The position numbers were made by a program, and so were the translations under genes. 55,260 nucleotides of DNA. Source: Fidelibacterota bacterium (GTDB taxonomy: Bacteria > Fidelibacterota > Marinisomatia > Marinisomatales > JABMOV01). This document shows, piece after piece, positions 26,343 to 35,196 of the stretch. A model generated the notes under the pieces. That model was not told where the DNA came from. It saw only the letters and a list, made by a program, of their open reading frames with translations, and did not search any database. Location of the stretch: positions 1-55,260 of the forward strand of contig JBHHUC010000009.1 in the NCBI GenBank assembly GCA_046861395.1, in the 5' to 3' direction. Numbering within the stretch: the first letter of the stretch is position 1; every line of letters starts with the position of its first letter.

Positions 26343-27002
26343 ATGAAAGTAAAACACATTATTTGGGACTGGAACGGCACTCTGCTGGATGATCTCTGGC
26401 TGAGTATTGAGGCCATAAATTGTGTTCTCCGCCGCTATGATCTTCCGGAAATAAGCAGGGAGAAATATCTGGAGATATTCACGTTTCCCGTAATTGACTA
26501 TTACCGGCAGCTGGGTTTTGATTTTGACCGGCATCCATTCGAACAAGTGGGAACCGAATTCATTGCCGAGTACACCAGACGGCAATTGGAACCGGCGCTA
26601 CACTCTGATGCCCGTTCTACGCTGGCCCGTTTTGCCTGGGAGGGAGGCCTGGGCCAGTCGCTGTTAACGGCGGCGACGCAGGAGATGGCCGAAACATTAG
26701 TGGACTATCATGAGTTGGGACCCTGGTTTGATCGGGTGGTGGGGCAGGATAACCATTATGCCTACGGGAAGGAAAAAGCCGGAGCAGCCTTGCTCAATGA
26801 GCTGGGATTAAGGCATGATGAAGTCATGTTTATTGGTGATACGGTTCATGACCTGGATGTTGCCAGGGCCATGGATGTATCCTGTCTACTGGTATCGCGG
26901 GGGCACACCAGTCATGAACGGCTGGTGGCCACAAAGGCTCCTGTTTTTTATTCCCTTTCCCAATGTGCTGATTATATTTTCCACCATGCCCAAAATGAAT
27001 AA
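26343..27002 (+). CDS. HAD family hydrolase (phosphoglycolate phosphatase-like)
   Basis: IIWDWNGTLLDD motif I and FIGDTVHD motif IV. The longer ORF from 26058 is antisense overlap with the Nudix gene. Confidence 0.85.
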   Translation: MKVKHIIWDWNGTLLDDLWLSIEAINCVLRRYDLPEISREKYLEIFTFPVIDYYRQLGFDFDRHPFEQVGTEFIAEYTRRQLEPALHSDARSTLARFAWEGGLGQSLLTAATQEMAETLVDYHELGPWFDRVVGQDNHYAYGKEKAGAALLNELGLRHDEVMFIGDTVHDLDVARAMDVSCLLVSRGHTSHERLVATKAPVFYSLSQCADYIFHHAQNE

Positions 27003-27294
27003 TCCATCCCGAAAACCCGATGCGCAGGCCATGATTGCGGAATACCGCCGACAGATTGACCAGATTGATGAATCATTGCTGGACCTGTTGATTACCCGGA
27101 TGGATGTGGCGGTCAAGGTTGGTGAGGTAAAGGCCCGGACCGGTATGGCCGTGGCCGATTCGGACCGGGAAAAAGCCATTCTGGATCGGTTGATCGCTCT
27201 GACCAACAATCCATTGTCCCGGAAACATATCAAGCGGATATTTCAGGAAATATTTCGGGCGGCGAAAGATGTTCAGCGCAAAATCGGAGGTTGA
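26995..27294 (+). CDS. Monofunctional chorismate mutase (type II, CM_2)
   Basis: YRRQIDQIDESLLDLL..R...A.KVGEVK......D.DRE. Start at 26995 or 26986, overlapping the HAD stop. Confidence 0.88.
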   Translation: MNNPSRKPDAQAMIAEYRRQIDQIDESLLDLLITRMDVAVKVGEVKARTGMAVADSDREKAILDRLIALTNNPLSRKHIKRIFQEIFRAAKDVQRKIGG

Positions 27295-27319
27295 ACCGAC
27301 ATGATCTCCGTGGTAACTT
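27291..27319 (+). promoter_or_regulatory. Putative sigma70-type promoter of the aromatic operon
   Basis: TTGAAC (27291-27296), 17 nt ending in TGG, then TAACTT (27314-27319). The leader ATG follows after a 7-nt gap. Confidence 0.6.
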
Positions 27320-27326
27320 CGCAACG

Positions 27327-27380
27327 ATGATTCGCGCTTACACCTTTTATTATTTTAAACGTACTTGGGGCTATTCCTGA
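27327..27380 (+). CDS. Aromatic amino acid attenuator leader peptide MIRAYTFYYFKRTWGYS
   Basis: Translated directly from the sequence. 7 of 17 codons are Tyr/Phe/Trp, including an FYYF run; lies upstream of a terminator and of pheA-tyrA-aroF. Confidence 0.88.
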   Translation: MIRAYTFYYFKRTWGYS

Positions 27381-27408
27381 GACGCGGTGTAAGACTGTAT
27401 TCTCAACT

Positions 27409-27434
27409 GGCCCCGGAATTGGGGCTTTTTTTTT
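27409..27434 (+). terminator. Intrinsic terminator (attenuator) before pheA
   Basis: GGCCCC-GGAATT-GGGGCT hairpin with a T9 tract at 27426-27434, 25 nt before the pheA ATG. Confidence 0.9.
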
Positions 27435-27459
27435 ACGGTAAAGAGAGGAGTTTAGATTC

Positions 27460-28032
27460 ATGGTCACAATTGGTATTCAAGGCGCCCAGGGCAGTTTCTC
27501 GGAAGAATCGGCACGAATATTTGCCCAGCACCATGGCATAGAAGATTTTAAGCTGGCCTATTTAATAACATCGGAAAATGTATTACGGGCTGTGGAAGAA
27601 GGCCAGGCGAAATACGGAATCTTTGCCATGGAAAATGCCCAGGGCGGTGTGGTGATTGAAAGCGTTACTGCTCTGGCCGAGCATCGCTGTACCATCGTGG
27701 AAATGTTTCATGTTGCCGTCCGGCAATGCTTACTGGCCCGTCGGGGAGTTCACCTGGGCGATATTACCGAAATTCATTCTCACCAACAGGCCCTGCGCCA
27801 ATGTCGTGATTACCTGGCGGAGCATTTCTGGACCAGGCCCCTCATCGAAGCCGATGATACGGCGGAATCAGCCCGGCGACTGAAGGAGGGAAAACTGCCT
27901 TCCCAGGCAGCCGTCATTGCGCCCCGACACTGCGCAGAATTATACGGTCTGGTCGTTCTGGAAGAGGATATTCATGATCTGAAAAATAATCTCACACTGT
28001 TTTTGGGAGTGAAACAATATGTTACAGAATAA
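27460..28032 (+). CDS. pheA: Prephenate dehydratase, catalytic domain only (no ACT domain)
   Basis: IQGAQGSFSEE, AMENAQGG, IHSHQQALRQC, DTAESA, IHDLKNNLTLF; GAGAGGAG RBS. Confidence 0.85.
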   Translation: MVTIGIQGAQGSFSEESARIFAQHHGIEDFKLAYLITSENVLRAVEEGQAKYGIFAMENAQGGVVIESVTALAEHRCTIVEMFHVAVRQCLLARRGVHLGDITEIHSHQQALRQCRDYLAEHFWTRPLIEADDTAESARRLKEGKLPSQAAVIAPRHCAELYGLVVLEEDIHDLKNNLTLFLGVKQYVTE

Positions 28033-28759
28033 AACTTCCACGGTAGGAATCATCGGACTGGGGCGTTTCGGAAAAGTCCTGGCGGATATATTATCGGATG
28101 ATTTTTCAATTCTGGCCTATGATCCCAATGTTTCTGATGAAATCTACGGTGTAACCTGGGCTTCCCTGGAAGATGTGTGCCGACAAGAAGCGGTATTCAT
28201 TGCCGTTCCCATCCGCCGGTTCAAGGAAGTCATCCGTGAAATAACGCCCTATGTGAGACCCGGGACGACGGTATTGGATGTATGTTCAGTAAAGGTTTAT
28301 CCCGTCACCGTCATGAAGGAACATCTGTCTGCCGATGTGGGAATTATCGGGACTCATCCCCTATTCGGACCAGACTCCATTCATCATCCCACGGGCCATA
28401 CCATGGTCATGACCAATGTCCGTGCGGCCCGCAAATCATTTCAGTTCTGGTGGAATTATTTTGCCGGGAAATCTATTACAGTACTGGAATTATCCCCGGA
28501 GGTCCATGATCGCCAAGCAGCCCGGACTCAGGGGATCACGCATTTCATCGGACGCGTAATCCGGGAAGCGGGTATAGAAGCAACAAACATGGATACACTG
28601 GGATTCAAGGATTTAATGGATGTTGTTGATCAGACCTGTAATGATAGCTGGGAATTATTTATGGACTTGCAGAATTACAATCCTTATACTCTCACGGTGA
28701 TTGATAATCTGGAAAAGTCGATCGCCAGTGTCCGCCAAAAAATAATTCAACGGGATTAA
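28019..28759 (+). CDS. tyrA: Prephenate/arogenate dehydrogenase
   Basis: GIIGLGRFG, DVCSVK, GTHPLFGP, HDRQAA.TQG.TH. Confidence 0.88.
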   Translation: MLQNKTSTVGIIGLGRFGKVLADILSDDFSILAYDPNVSDEIYGVTWASLEDVCRQEAVFIAVPIRRFKEVIREITPYVRPGTTVLDVCSVKVYPVTVMKEHLSADVGIIGTHPLFGPDSIHHPTGHTMVMTNVRAARKSFQFWWNYFAGKSITVLELSPEVHDRQAARTQGITHFIGRVIREAGIEATNMDTLGFKDLMDVVDQTCNDSWELFMDLQNYNPYTLTVIDNLEKSIASVRQKIIQRD

Positions 28760-28760
28760 C

Positions 28761-29780
28761 ATGTTGGTAATCATGAATACAGACGCTACGTCGGACCAGA
28801 TTAACCGGGTTCGGGAGCGTATTAAAGAAATGGGCTATACGGCCCACGATGTGGATTGGCATACACAACACGCCATCGGTGTTACCGGAAATAACGGATC
28901 GGAGGACCGTGTGTATCTGGAAGGGCTGCCCGGTGTAATGCAGGTCGTTCCTCTTTCACGACCCTATAAGCTGGCCAGTCGGGAAGTCCATCCTGAAAAT
29001 TCCGTATATCAGATTGGCTCAGCCACCTTCGGCGACGGAAATGTAACCATGATTGCTGGACCCTGCGCCGTGGAGAGCGAAGAACAGACCTTGCGCATTG
29101 CCGAAACCATTGCCAAAATGGGAAATCAGATGCTACGCGGCGGCGCGTATAAACCAAGAACATCACCCTATTCTTTTCAGGGCCTGGGTGAACGGGGATT
29201 GGAAATCCTGGCCAAGGCCCGGGATGCAACCGGATTGCCCTTTGTGACGGAGGTTGTCGATCAGACTACGGCACCCATCGTGGCCCAATATGCGGATATG
29301 CTCCAGATCGGAACCCGCAATATGCAGAATTTTATTCTTCTCAAGGAAGTTGGTAAACTGGGGAAACCGGTTCTGCTGAAACGGGGAATGAGTGCGACCC
29401 TGGAAGAGACATTGATGTCGGCGGAATATCTTATGGCCCATGGCAGCCGGGAAGTTGTCATTTGTGAGCGGGGCGTTCGCACCTTCAGCAGTCATGCGCG
29501 GAATACGCTGGATATTTCTATCATCCCGGCTCTGAAACATGTGAGTCATTTACCCATCATTGTTGACCCTTCCCATTCCAGCGGTCGGCGCTATAGTGTG
29601 ATTCCACACTCTCTGGCCGGAATCGGAGCCGGGGCCGACGGCCTTTTGGTGGATGTGCACGATCGTCCCGAAGAAGCCCTCTGTGACGGTCCCCAGGCCC
29701 TGTTGCCGGAGGAATTCAATCAATTGATGACGATTGCAAAAGGAATCTGTTCCGCTATGGGTAAATCCATCGGTCGCTAG
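28761..29780 (+). CDS. aroF: DAHP synthase, type I-beta with N-terminal regulatory domain
   Basis: IAGPCAVES, RGGAYKPRTSPYSFQG, IGTRNMQN, LLKRG, CERG, VDPSH, ALCDGPQ; about 70-aa N-terminal extension. Confidence 0.95.
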   Translation: MLVIMNTDATSDQINRVRERIKEMGYTAHDVDWHTQHAIGVTGNNGSEDRVYLEGLPGVMQVVPLSRPYKLASREVHPENSVYQIGSATFGDGNVTMIAGPCAVESEEQTLRIAETIAKMGNQMLRGGAYKPRTSPYSFQGLGERGLEILAKARDATGLPFVTEVVDQTTAPIVAQYADMLQIGTRNMQNFILLKEVGKLGKPVLLKRGMSATLEETLMSAEYLMAHGSREVVICERGVRTFSSHARNTLDISIIPALKHVSHLPIIVDPSHSSGRRYSVIPHSLAGIGAGADGLLVDVHDRPEEALCDGPQALLPEEFNQLMTIAKGICSAMGKSIGR

Positions 29781-29781
29781 G

Positions 29782-31029
29782 ATGGCGCTGCGGGGAGACC
29801 TGACTTTTCCCGGGGACAAATCACTGTCCCATCGGGCCTTGATGCTGGCCGCCCTCGCTCATGGCGACTCAACCATATCCAATCTGTCCGCCGGGGCCGA
29901 TGTCCGATCGACCAGACGTTGTCTGGAAGCCTGTGGTGTAGAAATCCGAACCGCCGGAAAAACAGTGCAAGTGCAGGGCGGAACCCTGACCACTCCTTCC
30001 CATCCGCTGGACTGCGGAAATTCCGGCACCACCGTACGTCTGCTGGCCGGTTTATTGGCCGGACAGGGGATAACAGCAACGTTTACCGGCGATGACTCCC
30101 TTTCCCGCCGGCCCATGCAGCGCATCATCACGCCCCTGGAGAAAATGGGTGTGACGTGCCACAGCAATTCCGGACACCTGCCGTTGACCATTGAACCCGG
30201 ACCCCTCCACGGCATCGATTATACCCTGCCCGTTGCCAGTGCCCAGGTAAAATCGTCCCTGCTTCTGGCTGCTCTGGGGGCGGAAGGAGCGACTACGGTC
30301 CGGGAACCGTACACTTCCCGGGATCATACGGAACGATTGCTGACATATTTTGGACTCCCGATCCAGCGGGAAGGTCTTACAATCCGTCTCCGGGGCGGGA
30401 CACATCGATGGCCTCCATTCGATTTTGCGATTCCCGGTGATCCTTCCACTGCTGCCTACTTCGCCGCCGCGGCCGCAATAATTCCGGACAGCTGTCTGAC
30501 TTTAAAAAACATTTCCCTGAATCCGACCCGGACCGGGTTTTTTTCGGCCCTGGAAACCATGGGTGGAAACCTCAGCTACGAGAAGGTAAATAAACGATTA
30601 GGCGAACCGGCTGGAGATCTTGAGGTGACTTCGGCCTCGCTCCGGGGATATTCCCCGAGACGGGAGGAGATTCCGGCTCTGATAGATGAAATTCCCATCC
30701 TGGCCGTATTGGCCACTCAGGCTGAAGGTGAGACCCGAATCACAGGAGCCAGTGAATTGCGGGTGAAAGAATGTGACCGTATCCATGCCGTCGTATTTAA
30801 TTTGAAGCAGATGGGGGCTGATATCCGGGAACAGGATGACGGATTCATCATAAACGGACCCACACTTCTACGCGGTGCTTCTATCCGAACCTTTCACGAT
30901 CATCGCATTGCCATGGCCTTTACAGTAGCCGGGCTAATCAGCGACGGACCTACCGTCCTGGATGATCCCGCTTGTGTGCAAATTTCCAGTCCCGAATTCT
31001 TTTCATTTTTAGAGAAGATTAAGCAATGA
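29782..31029 (+). CDS. aroA: 3-phosphoshikimate 1-carboxyvinyltransferase (EPSP synthase)
   Basis: PGDKSLSHR, CGNSGTT, SLSRRPM, ASAQVKS, SRDHTE, ELRVKECDR, DHRIAM. Confidence 0.96.
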   Translation: MALRGDLTFPGDKSLSHRALMLAALAHGDSTISNLSAGADVRSTRRCLEACGVEIRTAGKTVQVQGGTLTTPSHPLDCGNSGTTVRLLAGLLAGQGITATFTGDDSLSRRPMQRIITPLEKMGVTCHSNSGHLPLTIEPGPLHGIDYTLPVASAQVKSSLLLAALGAEGATTVREPYTSRDHTERLLTYFGLPIQREGLTIRLRGGTHRWPPFDFAIPGDPSTAAYFAAAAAIIPDSCLTLKNISLNPTRTGFFSALETMGGNLSYEKVNKRLGEPAGDLEVTSASLRGYSPRREEIPALIDEIPILAVLATQAEGETRITGASELRVKECDRIHAVVFNLKQMGADIREQDDGFIINGPTLLRGASIRTFHDHRIAMAFTVAGLISDGPTVLDDPACVQISSPEFFSFLEKIKQ

Positions 31030-31859
31030 AAAAATTTCTCGTTATCGGTAATCCCGTTCAACACAGTCTTAGTCCAATCCTCCACCGTCAGATATATAAT
31101 CAATTGGGTCTGGCTGCGACGTACGAAAAGCGCACCGTCAAATCGGATGAATTGCCGGCTATCATCGCAGAATTGCGTACCCACCGCCTGGACGGCATCA
31201 ATGTAACCATTCCTTATAAGGAGGAAGTCGTCCCATTGCTGGATCGCCTGTCACCGGAAGCAAACGCCATTGGGGCGGTGAACTGCATAACTCGCGAGGA
31301 AAATGACATCGTGGGATACAATACGGATTATTTTGCCTGTCGCCGCTTAATTGATGATCATGATCTGATACGGCCGGGGCGCCATGTGATTGTCCTGGGT
31401 GCCGGCGGTTCGGCCCGCAGCGTGGTGTATGCATTTCACCAGGCTGGGGCGGAAAAGGTGACAATTGTCAACCGTAATCCCGAACGAGCCCGGGACCTGG
31501 CGGATCATTTTGCCGGGGTGAACCGGGAAGCGGATTTTGACGTCGCTACATTGGCTGAAATCGATTCTTCTCATGCTCTCATCTGGGTGAATTGTACACC
31601 GGTGGGGATGGGACAACTGTCGGACCAGAGCCCGGTCCCGGAGCATCTGATTCAATCCCATCATATTGTCATGGATTTAATCTACCGGCCCTTGCGCACA
31701 ACCTTTGTAAAGCAGGCGGATCAACGCAATGCGGGCATTGTTTCGGGGCTGGATTTTCTCATTGAACAGGGACTCGAGTCGAATCGTATCTGGTTTGGCG
31801 CCGACCGGATCACGGCGGTGAATCGTCAGATAATCATCATGGATTTAATCGTACGCTGA
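31026..31859 (+). CDS. aroE: Shikimate dehydrogenase
   Basis: GNPVQHSLSP, NVTIPYK, GYNTD, GAGGSAR, NRN, NCTPVGM, DLIY. Confidence 0.95.
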   Translation: MKKFLVIGNPVQHSLSPILHRQIYNQLGLAATYEKRTVKSDELPAIIAELRTHRLDGINVTIPYKEEVVPLLDRLSPEANAIGAVNCITREENDIVGYNTDYFACRRLIDDHDLIRPGRHVIVLGAGGSARSVVYAFHQAGAEKVTIVNRNPERARDLADHFAGVNREADFDVATLAEIDSSHALIWVNCTPVGMGQLSDQSPVPEHLIQSHHIVMDLIYRPLRTTFVKQADQRNAGIVSGLDFLIEQGLESNRIWFGADRITAVNRQIIIMDLIVR

Positions 31860-31973
31860 CCGGCATTTATCCCACCACGGTGAGGGATTTCGTCTCGAAA
31901 AACATTCTTCTGTGAATAAGCCATTTGGTATTATTAATTTGCCGACAGCTTACACTGAAATGCATACCAGGTA

Positions 31974-33137
31974 ATGAATCTAAATAAACTCAAATTATTA
32001 ACGGCAGGCGAATCCCATGGCCCGGGATTATTGGGCATTCTGGAAGGTCTTCCGGCCGATATTCCGATCTCCGAAGATGACATTGCTCATCAGTTAAAAC
32101 GACGACAGGCCGGCTATGGACGCGGCGGACGGATGAAAATCGAAACGGATCGTGCCCGAATTTATTGTGGTGTTCGCTATGGCCGAACATTGGGTTCTCC
32201 CGTGGGATTGATTCTACCTAATAAGGATGCCGCAAACTGGACGGAGACTATGGCTGTGGCCGCTACAGCGCATGAAGCAGACCCCGTTACCCTGCCGCGA
32301 CCAGGACATGCGGACCTGGCCGGTATGGAAAAATATGGTTTTCGGGATATCAGGAATGTGATTGAACGATCATCGGCCCGGGAAACAGCGATGCGTGTGG
32401 CCTTGGGGACCCTGTGCCGCCGTCTGTTGGAAGAGATTGGAATCACCATTGGCAGTCGCGTGACACAGATTCATAAAGCTTGCGACAATACGCCGGTACC
32501 GCCGGATCTGTCACTGGTGGACCTGAATGAAAAGACGGATGCCAGCCCGGTGCGGGCCTTGAATGCCTCAGCCGGTGAGGCCATGGTTGCCGTGATACAA
32601 GCCGCCCAGCGCAGAGGGGATTCTGTGGGCGGTATCTTTGAAATCATGGCGCGAGGTCTGCCCTATGGTTTGGGAAGCCATGTGGATTGGGGCCGTAAAC
32701 TGCACGGGCGTATTGCTCAGGCCATCATGTCGATCAATGCCTTTAAGGGGATTGAATTCGGCACCGGGTTTGCTCAGGCCGGGCAATATGGCAGTGAAGT
32801 GCATGACAGTATTGGTTATGCCAATGAAAAGTACACCAGAGAAAGCAACCATGCCGGTGGAATTGAAGGGGGAATGAGCAATGCTCAACCGCTGGTTATC
32901 CGGGTGGTCATGAAGCCCATTCCAACGCTGAGCAAACCATTAGCGTCGGTGGATATTCAAACGAAAGAAGAAAAGCCGGCGTTCAAAGAAAGAACTGATT
33001 CCTGTGCCGTTCCGGCGGCTTCGGTTATCGGCGAACACATGTTGGGGATTGTGTTAGCTGATGCCGTACTGGAGAAATTCGGGGGTGATTCGTTGACACA
33101 GCTCCGGGCGCACATGGAGGCAACGGCAAAATACTAA
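31974..33137 (+). CDS. aroC: Chorismate synthase
   Basis: TAGESHG, RRQ.GYGRG.RM, PRPGHADL, ERSSARET, GGIEGGMSN, MKPIPTL, ERTD.CAVP. Confidence 0.97.
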   Translation: MNLNKLKLLTAGESHGPGLLGILEGLPADIPISEDDIAHQLKRRQAGYGRGGRMKIETDRARIYCGVRYGRTLGSPVGLILPNKDAANWTETMAVAATAHEADPVTLPRPGHADLAGMEKYGFRDIRNVIERSSARETAMRVALGTLCRRLLEEIGITIGSRVTQIHKACDNTPVPPDLSLVDLNEKTDASPVRALNASAGEAMVAVIQAAQRRGDSVGGIFEIMARGLPYGLGSHVDWGRKLHGRIAQAIMSINAFKGIEFGTGFAQAGQYGSEVHDSIGYANEKYTRESNHAGGIEGGMSNAQPLVIRVVMKPIPTLSKPLASVDIQTKEEKPAFKERTDSCAVPAASVIGEHMLGIVLADAVLEKFGGDSLTQLRAHMEATAKY

Positions 33138-33152
33138 CCAAAAGGAAGTCCA

Positions 33153-33674
33153 TTGAGTACACAACCGAAAAACATATTCCTGATTGGCATGATGGGAGCC
33201 TGGAAATCCACGGTGGGACGGAAACTGTCCCGTGCCACGGATTTTCGGTTTCGGGATATGGATAAGGAAATCGAGCGCGAAGCGGGCTTGATTGTGTCCC
33301 ATATTTTCGAAGTAATGTCAGAAAGAGAATTCAGGGAACTGGAGCGGCAGACCTTAAATCGTCTGATCCGAACCGAGCACCAGGTGATTGCGACGGGAGG
33401 AGGTGTGGTTCTGGATGATGGAAACCGTTTCATTCTTACCACGGAAGGGTATACCATTTATTTGAAAGCTCAGCCGGAAGTCCTGGATCGTCGCATTAAG
33501 AATGTTCAGAAACGCCCCATCCTGCAGCGCAGCCGAAATAAACTGGAAACACTCCGGCAAATTTATAAGGAACGGCATGCCTACTATGAAACTTCCTGTC
33601 ATTACGTCATTGAGACCGATGACATTTCACCGGAAGACATTGTCGATTTAATTAAAAAGAAACTTAATATTTAA
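33153..33674 (+). CDS. aroK: Shikimate kinase
   Basis: IFLIGMMGAWKSTVG, FRELE, IATGGG, KRPIL. TTG start with AAGGAAG RBS. Confidence 0.9.
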   Translation: MSTQPKNIFLIGMMGAWKSTVGRKLSRATDFRFRDMDKEIEREAGLIVSHIFEVMSEREFRELERQTLNRLIRTEHQVIATGGGVVLDDGNRFILTTEGYTIYLKAQPEVLDRRIKNVQKRPILQRSRNKLETLRQIYKERHAYYETSCHYVIETDDISPEDIVDLIKKKLNI

Positions 33675-34762
33675 TGCCTGAGATTCGCGTTGATTTGGGT
33701 CCCCGATCCTATTCCATCCGGGTGGCCAGAGGATTATCTCAACGATTGCCAGAATGCCTGGAAGAATTACAGGCTGGGCAATTGTGGGTCCTGATTACAC
33801 AGGAATCACTCTATCAGACTTACGGTGAACAGATTCATCAGCTATTGCATCAGGCCGGTATGCAAACGGCAGTGATTACGATTCCCGTAGGAGAAACGGC
33901 CAAAACGCTGAAGGAAGTGAATATCATCTATAACCAATTGATCACCATTGGCAGCGACCGGAGTACAACCTTACTGGCGCTGGGCGGCGGTGTGGTGGGT
34001 GATGTAACGGGTTTTGTGGCGGCCACCTTCATGCGGGGTATTTCCTATGTTCAGCTTCCTACGACCCTATTGGCCATGGTCGATTCCGCCATCGGAGGTA
34101 AAACGGGAGTCAATCTTCCCACTGGAAAAAACCTGATAGGTGCCGTTTATCAGCCCCGGCTGGTTATTCTGGATCCGGCCTTTCTTGCCACCTTACCGGC
34201 CAGGGAATATATTTCCGGTTTGGCTGAAATTCTGAAATATGGTCTGATTTTTGACAGTCGCTTTTTCCATTACCTGGAAGAAAACATGACAAACATTCTG
34301 GAACAGACCGATGAAGGGATTCAGGAAAAAATCATTTCCCGTTCCGCAGAATTGAAAACCAATATTGTAGAACAGGATGAGTTTGAAGGTGATTTACGCC
34401 GCCTGTTGAATTTCGGCCATACCATCGGCCATGCGCTGGAAACCAGCCTGGGTTATACTACCCTGCGCCACGGGGAAGCCGTCGCTTACGGTATGATGGC
34501 TGCCGGCGCCATTTCCTACCGGCGAAATCTTTTATCCAAGGCTGAATGGGATTTTCTGCAGTCAACGCTGCGCCGGCTACCGTTGCCGGCGATTACCATT
34601 CCACCGGCGGAAGATGTATTGACCATCATCAAGCGTGATAAAAAAGTTCGTTCCGGTGTGTTGCATTTTGTCCTGCTGAATGGTATCGGACAGGGCATTA
34701 TTGTGGATGATGTTACCGACGCGGAACTGACAGCGGTGCTGGAGACTCTGGAATCATTATGA
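33674..34762 (+). CDS. aroB: 3-dehydroquinate synthase
   Basis: GETAK, LGGGVVGD, PTTLLAMVDSAIGGKTG, LNFGHTIGHALE, HGEAV, DKK. Confidence 0.97.
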   Translation: MPEIRVDLGPRSYSIRVARGLSQRLPECLEELQAGQLWVLITQESLYQTYGEQIHQLLHQAGMQTAVITIPVGETAKTLKEVNIIYNQLITIGSDRSTTLLALGGGVVGDVTGFVAATFMRGISYVQLPTTLLAMVDSAIGGKTGVNLPTGKNLIGAVYQPRLVILDPAFLATLPAREYISGLAEILKYGLIFDSRFFHYLEENMTNILEQTDEGIQEKIISRSAELKTNIVEQDEFEGDLRRLLNFGHTIGHALETSLGYTTLRHGEAVAYGMMAAGAISYRRNLLSKAEWDFLQSTLRRLPLPAITIPPAEDVLTIIKRDKKVRSGVLHFVLLNGIGQGIIVDDVTDAELTAVLETLESL

Positions 34763-35196
34763 AGAATATTCTGGTAATCAACGGACCCAATCTCAATCTC
34801 CTGGGTGAACGAAATCCAGAAATATATGGCCATGAAACATTGTCTGATATTGAACAATACATCATAACACATCCGCTGGCCAGGGAAGTCAATATTCAGT
34901 GTTTCCAATCCAATTCAGAGGGTGACATCATCAATGTAATCCATGAAAGTCGGGGTTGGGCTGAAGGAATCATCATCAATCCAGCGGCTTACACGCATTA
35001 TTCCTATGCCATACGGGATGCCCTGGAAGCGGTCAGTATCCCGGTCGTGGAAGTGCATTTAAGTGATATTACCGCCCGCGAACCCTTTCGTGCCGGTTCG
35101 GTGATCGCACCCGTGTGTCTGGCCCAGGTCGCCGGCCATGGTAAGGAGAGTTATATCATGGGATTGAAACGGCTCCTGGCTTTTTCCAACGACTGA
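34759..35196 (+). CDS. aroQ: Type II 3-dehydroquinate dehydratase
   Basis: NGPNLNLLG.R.PEIYG, QSNSEG, INPAAYTHYS, EVHLS...REPFR. Confidence 0.96.
   Translation: MKNILVINGPNLNLLGERNPEIYGHETLSDIEQYIITHPLAREVNIQCFQSNSEGDIINVIHESRGWAEGIIINPAAYTHYSYAIRDALEAVSIPVVEVHLSDITAREPFRAGSVIAPVCLAQVAGHGKESYIMGLKRLLAFSND

What the first reader, a model, noticed from the sequence alone, without database searches (positions are those of the whole stretch)
27327..27434. Unannotated multi-aromatic leader-peptide attenuator heading the Phe/Tyr/shikimate operon
Seen: a 17-codon ORF MIRAYTFYYFKRTWGYS (27327-27380) with 4 Tyr, 2 Phe and 1 Trp, then a GC hairpin plus T9 just before pheA. TTGGGGCT occurs twice, at 27365-27372 in the leader and at 27419-27426 as the terminator 3' arm. 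The leader copy (27365-27373) can therefore pair with the terminator 5' arm TGGCCCCGG (27408-27416) as an antiterminator. CTTACACC (27337-27344) pairs perfectly with GGTGTAAG (27386-27393), a protector helix that encloses the antiterminator arm. Established: this is the architecture of E. coli trpL/pheL attenuation. Inference: stalling at Y5 or F7-Y8-Y9-F10 blocks the protector and frees the antiterminator, so either Phe or Tyr limitation gives read-through into pheA-tyrA-aroF-aroA-aroE. I do not know of such a mixed Phe/Tyr leader described in this lineage, but could not search.
Basis: partly seen in the sequence, partly recalled or inferred. Interest (0 to 1): 0.9.

Follow-up and report, generated by a model that had tools for sequence, protein, structure and literature searches.

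The report
Tyrosine/phenylalanine leader-peptide attenuator before pheA
A tiny upstream gene packed with tyrosine and phenylalanine codons, followed by a switchable stop signal, most likely lets this uncultured marine bacterium turn on its aromatic amino-acid genes when those amino acids run short; the mechanism is textbook, but this version is uncatalogued.

Summary
There is a 17-codon ORF (27327-27380) with a Tyr/Phe cluster and a hairpin plus T9 (27409-27434). A copy of the terminator's 3' arm inside the ORF can pair with the 5' arm. The reading as a ribosome-mediated transcription attenuator is strongly supported by comparison.

The genome is a Marinimicrobia (SAR406) MAG. Across its order I found 31 distinct units of this layout directly before pheA. 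A further 28 sit before trpE in genomes where pheA follows trpA.

Leader content tracks operon content. All 28 trpE-heading leaders carry Trp codons in the cluster, and 23 carry two or more. Only 3 of 31 pheA-heading leaders carry one, and none carries two. Four genera hold both states.

The antiterminator pairing is conserved with compensatory changes and ends at the stop codon. The "protector" helix is real here but only partly conserved.

A promoter-like -10 ends about 7 nt before the leader ATG and there is no Shine-Dalgarno sequence, so the leader is probably translated from a leaderless mRNA.

No Rfam family reaches threshold, and I found no paper on it in this phylum. Mixed Phe/Tyr leaders (C. 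glutamicum aroR) and leaderless leaders are already in print, and this scan has noted sibling elements in Marinimicrobia on other DNA. It is a solid new member of a known kind, of moderate interest.

The parts
26986..27294 (+). Chorismate mutase gene (CM_2) just upstream. Its stop codon (27292-27294) lies inside the -35-like hexamer.
   Evidence: Pfam CM_2 at 2.9e-23; sequence.
27291..27296 (+). -35-like hexamer TTGAAC.
   Evidence: Best promoter-like match upstream of the leader, with a 17-nt spacer to TAACTT. Inferred, no transcript data.
27314..27319 (+). -10-like hexamer TAACTT, ending 7 nt before the leader ATG. No Shine-Dalgarno sequence lies in between.
   Evidence: The same spacing of 5-8 nt is seen in 25 of 31 pheA-type and 21 of 28 trpE-type units, against 22.5% of shuffled upstream sequences.
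27327..27380 (+). Leader ORF of 17 codons plus TGA.
   Evidence: An ORF of this kind is conserved in relatives.
27339..27356 (+). Regulatory Tyr/Phe codons Y5, F7, Y8, Y9, F10.
   Evidence: Footprint-constrained folds; an aromatic cluster is conserved in all related leaders.
27337..27344 (+). 5' strand of the protector helix (CTTACACC), overlapping codons 4-6.
   Evidence: In the minimum-energy folds; duplex -12.7 kcal/mol, z -2.8.
27386..27393 (+). 3' strand of the protector helix (GGTGTAAG).
27365..27373 (+). Antiterminator 5' strand (region 2) in codons 13-16, ending just before the stop codon.
   Evidence: Duplex with 27408-27416 at -14.1 kcal/mol, z -3.4; it forms in the truncated RNA fold.
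27408..27416 (+). Antiterminator 3' strand, which is also the terminator 5' arm.
27409..27434 (+). Intrinsic terminator: hairpin 27409-27426 and T9 27426-27434.
   Evidence: -11.2 kcal/mol. The stem is 95.5% paired over 59 units, and 3 of 6 pairs show changes on both sides.
27460..35196 (+). Controlled operon: pheA (PDT without ACT domain, 27460-28032), tyrA (28019-28759), DAHP synthase (28761-29780), aroA (29734-31029), aroE (31026-31859), aroC (31974-33137), aroK (33153-33674), aroB (33674-34762), aroQ (34759-35196).
   Evidence: Pfam. No intergenic terminator-like site on the + strand within it. That it is one transcript is inferred.

Best explanation
This is a ribosome-mediated (leader-peptide) transcription attenuator that senses charged tRNA-Tyr and tRNA-Phe. 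Transcription starts at or within a base or two of the leader AUG (inferred), so a ribosome loads at once. With enough Tyr and Phe, the ribosome runs to the stop codon (27378-27380). There it covers region 2 (27365-27373), the terminator hairpin (27409-27426) forms, and RNA polymerase stops at the T9 tract before pheA. When Tyr-tRNA or Phe-tRNA is scarce, the ribosome stalls on Y5 or F7-Y8-Y9. This holds the protector's 5' strand and leaves region 2 free. Region 2 pairs with the terminator's 5' arm (27408-27416), the terminator cannot form, and transcription reads into pheA-tyrA-aroF-aroA-aroE-aroC-aroK-aroB-aroQ. Shown: the sequence elements, their conservation, the compensatory changes, and the link between leader codons and operon content. 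Inferred: stalling, termination, the transcription start, and the either-Phe-or-Tyr logic.
For: (1) Conservation. Of 85 pheA loci in the order, 29 were called by rule as carrying an aromatic short ORF plus terminator directly upstream. Two more (L059, L060) were found by eye, and 46 have pheA next to trpA. These gave 31 distinct units.
(2) Of 31 fetched regions upstream of the trp genes, 29 held trpE. 28 of those 29 held a unit of the same layout just before trpE.
(3) Codon content tracks operon content. In the peptide minus its last 6 residues, 28 of 28 trpE-heading leaders have at least 1 Trp and 23 have at least 2. For pheA-heading leaders the counts are 3 of 31 and 0 of 31. Both states occur within four genera (g11, g20, g36, g38; labels). 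In the alignment, TGG is replaced by TTG, CGG and other codons.
(4) Antiterminator. The duplex between the ORF's 3' end and the terminator's 5' arm has mean z -2.86, with 23 of 31 below -2. Region 2 ends within -3 to +5 nt of the stop codon. In an anchored, ungapped register over 58 units, the three G-C core pairs hold in 100%. The next three positions pair in 86, 78 and 79%, and the third shows TA 23, GC 15, AT 3. Shifted registers score lower at that position.
(5) Footprint folds. In RNA cut before the 3' arm, the terminator's 5' arm is paired 0.78 on average with a ribosome at the best aromatic codon and 0.38 with a ribosome at the stop codon. The stalled state is the highest of the three in 27 of 31 units. 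For the window.
(6) Terminator-like sites in this genome are enriched after long ORFs: 45 of 141 against 11% of random positions.
(7) A covariance model built from the 59 units finds only this site in the window's genome. It hits 66 of 151 genomes sampled across the phylum. The hits I checked precede trpE, chorismate mutase, DAHP synthase, PDH or a PDH-PDT fusion.
Against: There is no transcript, ribosome or reporter evidence, and no RNA run was listed. At equilibrium the full-length RNA keeps the terminator in most relatives even with a stalled footprint: only 9 of 31 drop below 0.5. The switch must therefore be kinetic, as in classical attenuators. In the truncated free RNA the antiterminator forms without any ribosome (0.73 on average, 0.97 in the window). 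The protector's role is therefore not supported thermodynamically, and its conservation is modest (mean z -1.35, 13 of 31 below -2). There is no Shine-Dalgarno sequence before the leader ATG, so translation rests on the leaderless inference. Related sequences are not independent, so the counts overstate the support. In C. glutamicum aroR only Phe limitation had an effect, according to the review passage. Response to both amino acids is therefore not assured.
Confidence: 0.85

Rival explanations
1. The hairpin plus T9 is simply the intrinsic terminator of the upstream HAD-chorismate mutase transcription unit, and the aromatic ORF is a chance reading frame.
For: The element lies 115 nt after the chorismate mutase stop. 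No other terminator-like site lies between that gene and pheA on the + strand. It may well end upstream transcripts in addition to its regulatory role.
Against: The same ORF-plus-terminator unit occurs where no chorismate mutase gene lies upstream: only 7 of the 25 relatives' loci (L002-L026) gave a chorismate mutase hit. It also occurs at the head of trp operons. The ORF, its aromatic cluster and the position of its stop relative to region 2 are conserved. Trp codons follow trp genes.
Confidence: 0.03
2. The terminator is controlled by a ligand- or protein-binding RNA (a riboswitch, a T-box, or a TRAP- or PyrR-like protein), not by translation of the ORF.
For: There is no Shine-Dalgarno sequence before the ORF. 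Alternative RNA structures exist.
Against: No Rfam family matched at E up to 10 in 26500-28000 apart from two chance snoRNA hits. What is conserved across subfamilies is the reading frame and the aromatic codons, with synonymous TAT/TAC and TTT/TTC variation, not a nucleotide fold. The stop codon always abuts region 2.
Confidence: 0.05
3. The ORF encodes a functional aromatic-rich micropeptide (acting in trans, as reported for peTrpL in Sinorhizobium), and the terminator is unrelated to its translation.
For: Leader peptides with trans functions are in print (abstract of PMC7298713 in the listing).
Against: The peptide sequence outside the aromatic cluster and the Gly encoded by the G-run is not conserved between subfamilies. 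Length varies from 14 to 29 residues. Residue choice follows operon content. A trans role on top of attenuation is not excluded.
Confidence: 0.03
4. Control is translational (occlusion of the pheA ribosome-binding site) rather than transcriptional.
For: pheA has its own purine-rich site (GAGAGGAG, 27443-27450) only 9 nt after the T run.
Against: That site is unpaired in the minimum-energy fold of 27295-27445. A G+C hairpin directly followed by T9 is the signature of an intrinsic terminator. In relatives, the distance from terminator to the next start codon varies from 3 to 66 nt.
Confidence: 0.04

Closest known systems
E. coli pheL-pheA attenuator (Rfam Phe_leader RF01859) and trpL (Trp_leader RF00513)
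   Same: A short ORF with a run of codons for the pathway's product. An antiterminator competes with an intrinsic terminator placed before the first biosynthetic gene. A third helix involves the regulatory codons.
   Different: There is no sequence or model membership: the window has no hit, and the best relatives score 39.6 bits (cut-off 55) and 35.5 bits (cut-off 41). The codon cluster is mixed Tyr+Phe (and +Trp in relatives). Region 2 lies inside the ORF next to the stop codon. There is no Shine-Dalgarno sequence, and the leader is probably leaderless. It controls the whole shikimate pathway plus the Phe and Tyr branches.
Corynebacterium glutamicum aroR leader upstream of aroF (Neshat et al. 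2014, seen only as cited in passages of PMC11802643)
   Same: A leader peptide mixing Phe and Tyr codons (Phe-Tyr-Phe) that attenuates an operon containing DAHP synthase.
   Different: It belongs to a different phylum and is not known to be related. That review says only Phe limitation, not Tyr, changed transcription. Here Tyr codons outnumber Phe codons (means of 3.5 and 2.2 per leader).
Leaderless leader peptides of Deinococcus deserti (PMC4007540, passages) and polycysteine leaderless short ORFs of mycobacteria (10.1101/834739, abstract in the listing)
   Same: The leader peptide's AUG is at or next to the transcript's 5' end, with no Shine-Dalgarno sequence.
   Different: Those have mapped transcription starts. 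Here the start is inferred only from a conserved -10-like hexamer 5-8 nt upstream.
Bacteroid-trp RNA motif of Bacteroidetes (recalled from memory, not read here)
   Same: As I recall, a Trp-codon leader ORF with a terminator before trp genes in another phylum of the FCB group.
   Different: It is not among the Rfam matches at E up to 10 (window) or E up to 1 (20 related loci).

Membership tests
Ribosome-mediated (leader-peptide) transcription attenuators | Short ORF with clustered codons for the amino acid(s) made by the downstream operon | tested here: met
   Five Tyr/Phe codons lie within codons 5-10, before the PDT, PDH and shikimate-pathway genes. Trp codons appear where trp genes are downstream.
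Ribosome-mediated (leader-peptide) transcription attenuators | Intrinsic terminator between the ORF and the first structural gene | tested here: met
   Hairpin 27409-27426 plus T9. It is conserved with compensatory changes.
Ribosome-mediated (leader-peptide) transcription attenuators | Antiterminator that uses the terminator's 5' arm and is exposed or hidden by ribosome position | tested here: met
   Region 2 ends -3 to +5 nt from the stop codon in 31 of 31 units.
Ribosome-mediated (leader-peptide) transcription attenuators | Upstream (1:2-type) helix involving the regulatory codons | tested here: inconclusive
   An 8-bp perfect helix is present in the window. Only 13 of 31 relatives have z < -2, and it is not the equilibrium structure of the truncated free RNA.
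Ribosome-mediated (leader-peptide) transcription attenuators | Signal for translation of the leader (Shine-Dalgarno sequence or 5'-terminal AUG) | tested here: inconclusive
   There is no Shine-Dalgarno sequence. A -10-like hexamer ends 7 nt before the ATG, and this spacing is conserved. One subfamily instead has a 20-nt leader with an AAGGAAAG-type site. No transcript start data exist.
Ribosome-mediated (leader-peptide) transcription attenuators | Read-through responds to charged-tRNA supply | not testable with these tools
   The organism is uncultured, and no RNA run was listed.
Rfam Phe_leader (RF01859) / Trp_leader (RF00513) | Score at or above the family's gathering cut-off | tested here: not met
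   The window has no hit at E up to 10. The relatives' best scores are 39.6 against 55 and 35.5 against 41 bits.

The most novel reading that the evidence does not exclude
Marinimicrobia carry a phylum-wide, probably leaderless attenuator layout that is re-coded as operons change. The layout is promoter, AUG, codon cluster, G-run at the stop codon, and a C-run terminator. Trp codons are gained or lost as the trp genes join or leave the aromatic supraoperon, repeatedly and within genera. Some genomes place two such units in series, a Trp-rich one before trpE and a Tyr/Phe one before pheA or chorismate mutase. Units of the same layout carry Cys or Ile/Leu/Val leaders before a cysteine-synthase-like gene and before ilvD. 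In the window's organism the unit would stand in for the feedback control that its ACT-less prephenate dehydratase lacks.
Probability: 0.4. Interest if true: 0.6.

Novelty: new member of a known kind. Interest (0 to 1): 0.5.

Why it matters
It gives a concrete, testable regulatory element for an abundant, almost uncultured marine phylum. A nine-gene aromatic operon there appears to be run by one 17-codon sensor. The comparison across genomes is a natural experiment: the sensor's codons change with the genes it controls. That is unusually direct genomic evidence that such leaders read amino-acid supply. It also flags roughly 60 unannotated small ORFs, and an RNA family that the curated library lacks. 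The mechanism itself is classical, so the result extends known biology rather than changing it.

Tried and rejected
- **Rfam.** A scan of 26500-28000 at E up to 10 gave only two chance snoRNA matches. A scan of 20 related loci gave sub-threshold Phe_leader and Trp_leader hits only.
- **RNA evidence.** No RNA holder was listed for 26900-28100, so transcript ends could not be examined.
- **Earlier notes of this scan.** Lookups near the place and by sequence returned nothing.
- **Full-length equilibrium folding.** With footprints it discriminated poorly in most relatives. I therefore also folded the RNA cut before the terminator's 3' arm.
- **Pair counting on the alignment.** I did not count antiterminator pairs on the MAFFT alignment A1. 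The G-runs of different subfamilies are aligned one base out of pairing register. I used an anchored, ungapped register instead.
- **More close relatives.** A metagenome search for more members of the window's own subfamily (FYFYYF type) found none. It returned 80 loci, 75 usable, and 16 had other leader subtypes. The specific protector helix therefore rests on four sequences.
- **A second aromatic candidate.** The FFFFW ORF on C130 lies inside a long membrane-protein ORF and was dropped.
- **A leader before the genome's own trpE.** None was found. A TrpR/YerC-like gene ends directly before it.
- **Literature.** Searches for Marinimicrobia with attenuator returned 0 papers. In the Marinimicrobia / attenuation / leader peptide search, none of the 15 listed papers held the word Marinimicrobia.

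Full report
**What is in the sequence**

- An ATG at 27327 opens a 17-codon frame, MIRAYTFYYFKRTWGYS, closed by TGA at 27378-27380.
- TTGGGGCT occurs at 27365-27372 and again at 27419-27426.
- TGGCCCCGG lies at 27408-27416, CTTACACC at 27337-27344 and GGTGTAAG at 27386-27393.
- A run of nine T spans 27426-27434, and pheA starts at 27460.

The terminator scan lists the hairpin at 27409-27426 with its T tail. The minimum-energy fold of 27327-27436 contains both the CUUACACC/GGUGUAAG helix and the terminator, with z = -3.15 against shuffles (the longer stretch is).

**Gene context**

Pfam identifies the neighbours on the + strand.
- Upstream: a HAD hydrolase gene and a chorismate mutase gene (26986-27294).
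- Downstream: prephenate dehydratase (190 aa, PDT domain only, no ACT domain), prephenate dehydrogenase, DAHP synthase, EPSP synthase, shikimate dehydrogenase, chorismate synthase, shikimate kinase, DHQ synthase and type II DHQase, ending at 35196.

No intergenic terminator-like site interrupts the downstream run on the + strand.

**Lineage and chance**

Record titles of the closest public contigs name Candidatus Marinimicrobia / Neomarinimicrobiota, also known as SAR406, in the FCB group.

I scanned the window's own 2.37-Mb genome for short ORFs ending within 95 nt upstream of a terminator-like site. There were 141 sites and 375 ORFs.
- This is the only ATG-started ORF with at least 5 aromatic residues in 8.
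- Another candidate, on C130, lies inside a long membrane-protein ORF.
- Terminator-like sites are about threefold enriched just after long ORFs: 45 of 141 against 11% of random positions. Intrinsic terminators therefore seem to be in use here.

**Conservation before pheA**

A search with the PDT protein found the gene in 118 of 233 genomes of the order. I read the DNA upstream of 85 such loci.
- By rule, 29 carry an aromatic short ORF followed by a G+C hairpin and T run directly before pheA.
- Two more (L059, L060) were missed by the rule but are seen.
- Two (L078, L101) have weaker leaders with three aromatic residues.
- In 46, pheA sits next to trpA. Two of these (L004, L007) have an unexplained spacer of about 170 nt.
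- L089 and L092 have a leader followed by a fragment of trpE.
- L023, L024 and L118 follow aroQ.
- One locus (L116) is different.

After removing duplicates there are 31 distinct pheA-heading units. They fall into several subfamilies with little sequence in common beyond three features: the aromatic cluster (motifs such as FYFYYF, YYYF, YYYRYF, YYGSYFFF), a G-run near the end of the ORF, and the terminator. The window's own subfamily has four members, all from its family. A metagenome search added 16 more units of other subtypes and none of this one.

**The trp connection**

For 31 genomes where pheA follows trpA, I fetched the region where trpE should begin.
- 29 regions held trpE, and 28 of those had a unit of the same layout just upstream. 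The exception has trpE starting about 150 nt from the end of the fetched stretch.
- These leaders carry Trp codons inside the cluster (for example YYSWYWFF).

I counted the peptide without its last six residues, because those encode region 2.

| Leader type | At least 1 Trp | At least 2 Trp |
|---|---|---|
| trpE-heading (28) | 28 | 23 |
| pheA-heading (31) | 3 | 0 |

Related genomes are not independent. Even so, both states occur within each of four genera (g11, g20, g36, g38; labels). The alignment also shows TGG replaced by TTG, CGG and other codons in otherwise similar leaders.

Two genomes carry both kinds in series on one contig. A Trp-rich leader stands before trpE-G-D-C-F-B-A. A Tyr/Phe leader stands before pheA in G028 and before chorismate mutase in G082.

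In the window's genome the trp operon lies elsewhere, and a TrpR/YerC-like gene ends directly before trpE. That fits a leader whose only Trp codon sits in region 2. This tracking of leader codons with operon content is the strongest argument that the ORF is read as a sensor.

**The RNA switch**

I scored the best duplex between the last 27 nt of the ORF plus stop and the terminator's 5' arm with 12 nt upstream.
- The mean z is -2.86, and 23 of 31 units fall below -2.
- The window scores -14.1 kcal/mol with z = -3.4.
- The pairing ends between 3 nt past and 5 nt before the first base of the stop codon in all 31 units.
- In several subfamilies the pairing runs 12-14 bp, with different sequences on both strands.

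I then anchored the last G of the G-run on the first C of the C-run and read the helix without gaps over 58 of 59 units.
- The three core pairs are G-C in 100% of units.
- The next three positions pair in 86, 78 and 79%.
- The third of these shows TA 23, GC 15 and AT 3, and shifted registers score lower there.

The terminator stem is 95.5% paired over the 59 units, with changes on both sides in 3 of 6 pairs.

**Ribosome footprints**

For the window's full-length leader, the terminator probability depends on where the footprint sits.

| State | Terminator probability |
|---|---|
| Free RNA | 0.92 |
| A site at Y5, F7, Y8 or Y9 | 0.39-0.52 |
| A site at F10 | 0.89 |
| A site at W14, Y16 or the stop codon | 0.92 |

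In most relatives the full-length equilibrium keeps the terminator: only 9 of 31 drop below 0.5. That is expected if the decision is kinetic.

I also folded the RNA cut just before the terminator's 3' arm.
- The 5' arm is paired 0.78 on average with the ribosome at the best aromatic codon.
- It is paired 0.38 with the ribosome at the stop codon.
- It is paired 0.73 in free RNA.
- The stalled state is the highest of the three in 27 of 31 units.

The contrast between a stalled and a terminating ribosome is therefore supported. The untranslated state is not shown to terminate.

**The protector helix**

The 8-bp helix of the window is real, at -12.7 kcal/mol with z = -2.8. Over the 31 units, pairing between the aromatic codons and the stretch after the stop has mean z -1.35, and 13 fall below -2. 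Its position also differs within the window's own subfamily. I regard it as a likely but unproven part, perhaps a pause or insulation helix.

**Start of the transcript**

No purine-rich ribosome-binding site precedes the leader ATG, whereas pheA has GAGAGGAG. The best promoter-like pair upstream is TTGAAC, a 17-nt spacer, and TAACTT. Its -10 ends 7 nt before the ATG, and its -35 overlaps the chorismate mutase stop codon.

The same spacing of 5-8 nt holds in 25 of 31 pheA-type and 21 of 28 trpE-type units, often with TAATAT or TATAAT. It holds in 22.5% of shuffled upstream sequences. One subfamily instead has a leader of about 20 nt with an AAGGAAAG-type site. 56 of the 59 leaders start with ATG.

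I infer a leaderless or nearly leaderless leader mRNA, at about 55% confidence. Only mapping of 5' ends can settle it.

**Reach in the phylum**

A covariance model of the 59 units finds only this site in the window's genome (39.2 bits). It hits 66 of 151 genomes sampled across the phylum at E up to 0.01. Weak hits were not all checked. Among the 30 best loci, Pfam shows the following pairings.
- Trp-rich leaders precede trpE.
- Tyr/Phe leaders precede chorismate mutase, DAHP synthase, PDH or a PDH-PDT fusion.
- One leader with five Cys codons in a row precedes a PALP-family enzyme.
- Two Ile/Leu/Val-rich leaders precede ilvD.

**Comparison with what is known**

The mechanism is that of E. coli trpL and pheL. 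Membership in the Rfam families fails: the window has no hit, and the best relatives stay below the cut-offs.

A mixed Phe-Tyr-Phe leader, aroR, before aroF is described for C. glutamicum. There only Phe limitation had an effect, according to passages of PMC11802643 citing Neshat et al. 2014, which I did not read. Leaderless leader peptides are described for Deinococcus deserti (passages of PMC4007540) and for mycobacteria (abstract of 10.1101/834739 in the listing).

A 2010 survey said leader peptides had then been shown only in Proteobacteria and Actinobacteria, and it added Firmicutes (passages of PMC2965389). I found no paper linking Marinimicrobia with an attenuator: 0 papers, none of the 15 listed held the word Marinimicrobia, and searches gave nothing relevant. 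Supplements were not consulted.

This scan has already noted sibling elements on other DNA.
- A YYSWYWFF leader before trpE in Marinimicrobia.
- Two W-K-W trp leaders in Marinimicrobia.
- Many Tyr/Phe leaders in other lineages.

I met the first two kinds independently.

**Verdict**

This is very probably a working Tyr/Phe-sensing attenuator heading a nine-gene aromatic operon. It is a new, uncatalogued member of a classical kind. Two additions are worth noting: the probable leaderless start, and the tracking of leader codons with operon content across the order.

Noticed in passing
L178 (G260:C7:57459-57596, - strand): A unit of the same layout whose leader has five Cys codons in a row lies 19 nt before a PALP-family (cysteine-synthase-like) gene. 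It is a candidate cysteine attenuator in the same class.
   Followed up: partly
L182 (G314:C72:5722-5861, -) and L183 (G276:C67:11352-11495, -): Ile/Leu/Val-rich leaders with terminators lie before ilvD (dihydroxy-acid dehydratase). They are candidate branched-chain attenuators in other families of the phylum.
   Followed up: partly
L184 (G028:C1:35600-42800) and L185 (G082:C2:126300-133300): Two attenuator units lie in series in one supraoperon. A Trp-rich leader precedes trpEGDCFBA, and a Tyr/Phe leader precedes pheA (G028) or chorismate mutase (G082).
   Followed up: partly
L089, L092, L098, L104 (G200, G185, G151, G140): Between the leader's terminator and pheA lie the first codons of trpE. 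In L089, L098 and L104 these are joined to the tail of trpA, as if the interior of the trp operon had been deleted (or collapsed in assembly). L098 has also lost the Trp codons of its leader.
   Followed up: no
window genome, C80 (L120, - strand): The genome's own trpE (499 aa) is directly preceded by a gene for a TrpR/YerC-like helix-turn-helix protein and has no leader. The Trp branch is thus controlled differently from the Phe/Tyr branch here.
   Followed up: partly
window 27460-28032: The prephenate dehydratase has the PDT domain only (190 aa) and lacks the ACT regulatory domain. The DAHP synthase (28761-29780) has an N-terminal ferredoxin-like domain.
   Followed up: no
window 31860-31973: A 115-nt gap lies between aroE and aroC inside the otherwise tightly packed operon. 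No terminator-like site was found there, and its meaning is unknown.
   Followed up: no
L004, L007 (G030, G016): In family f14 about 170 nt separate trpA from pheA. The spacer holds a weak hairpin plus T7 but no aromatic ORF, and it is unexplained.
   Followed up: no
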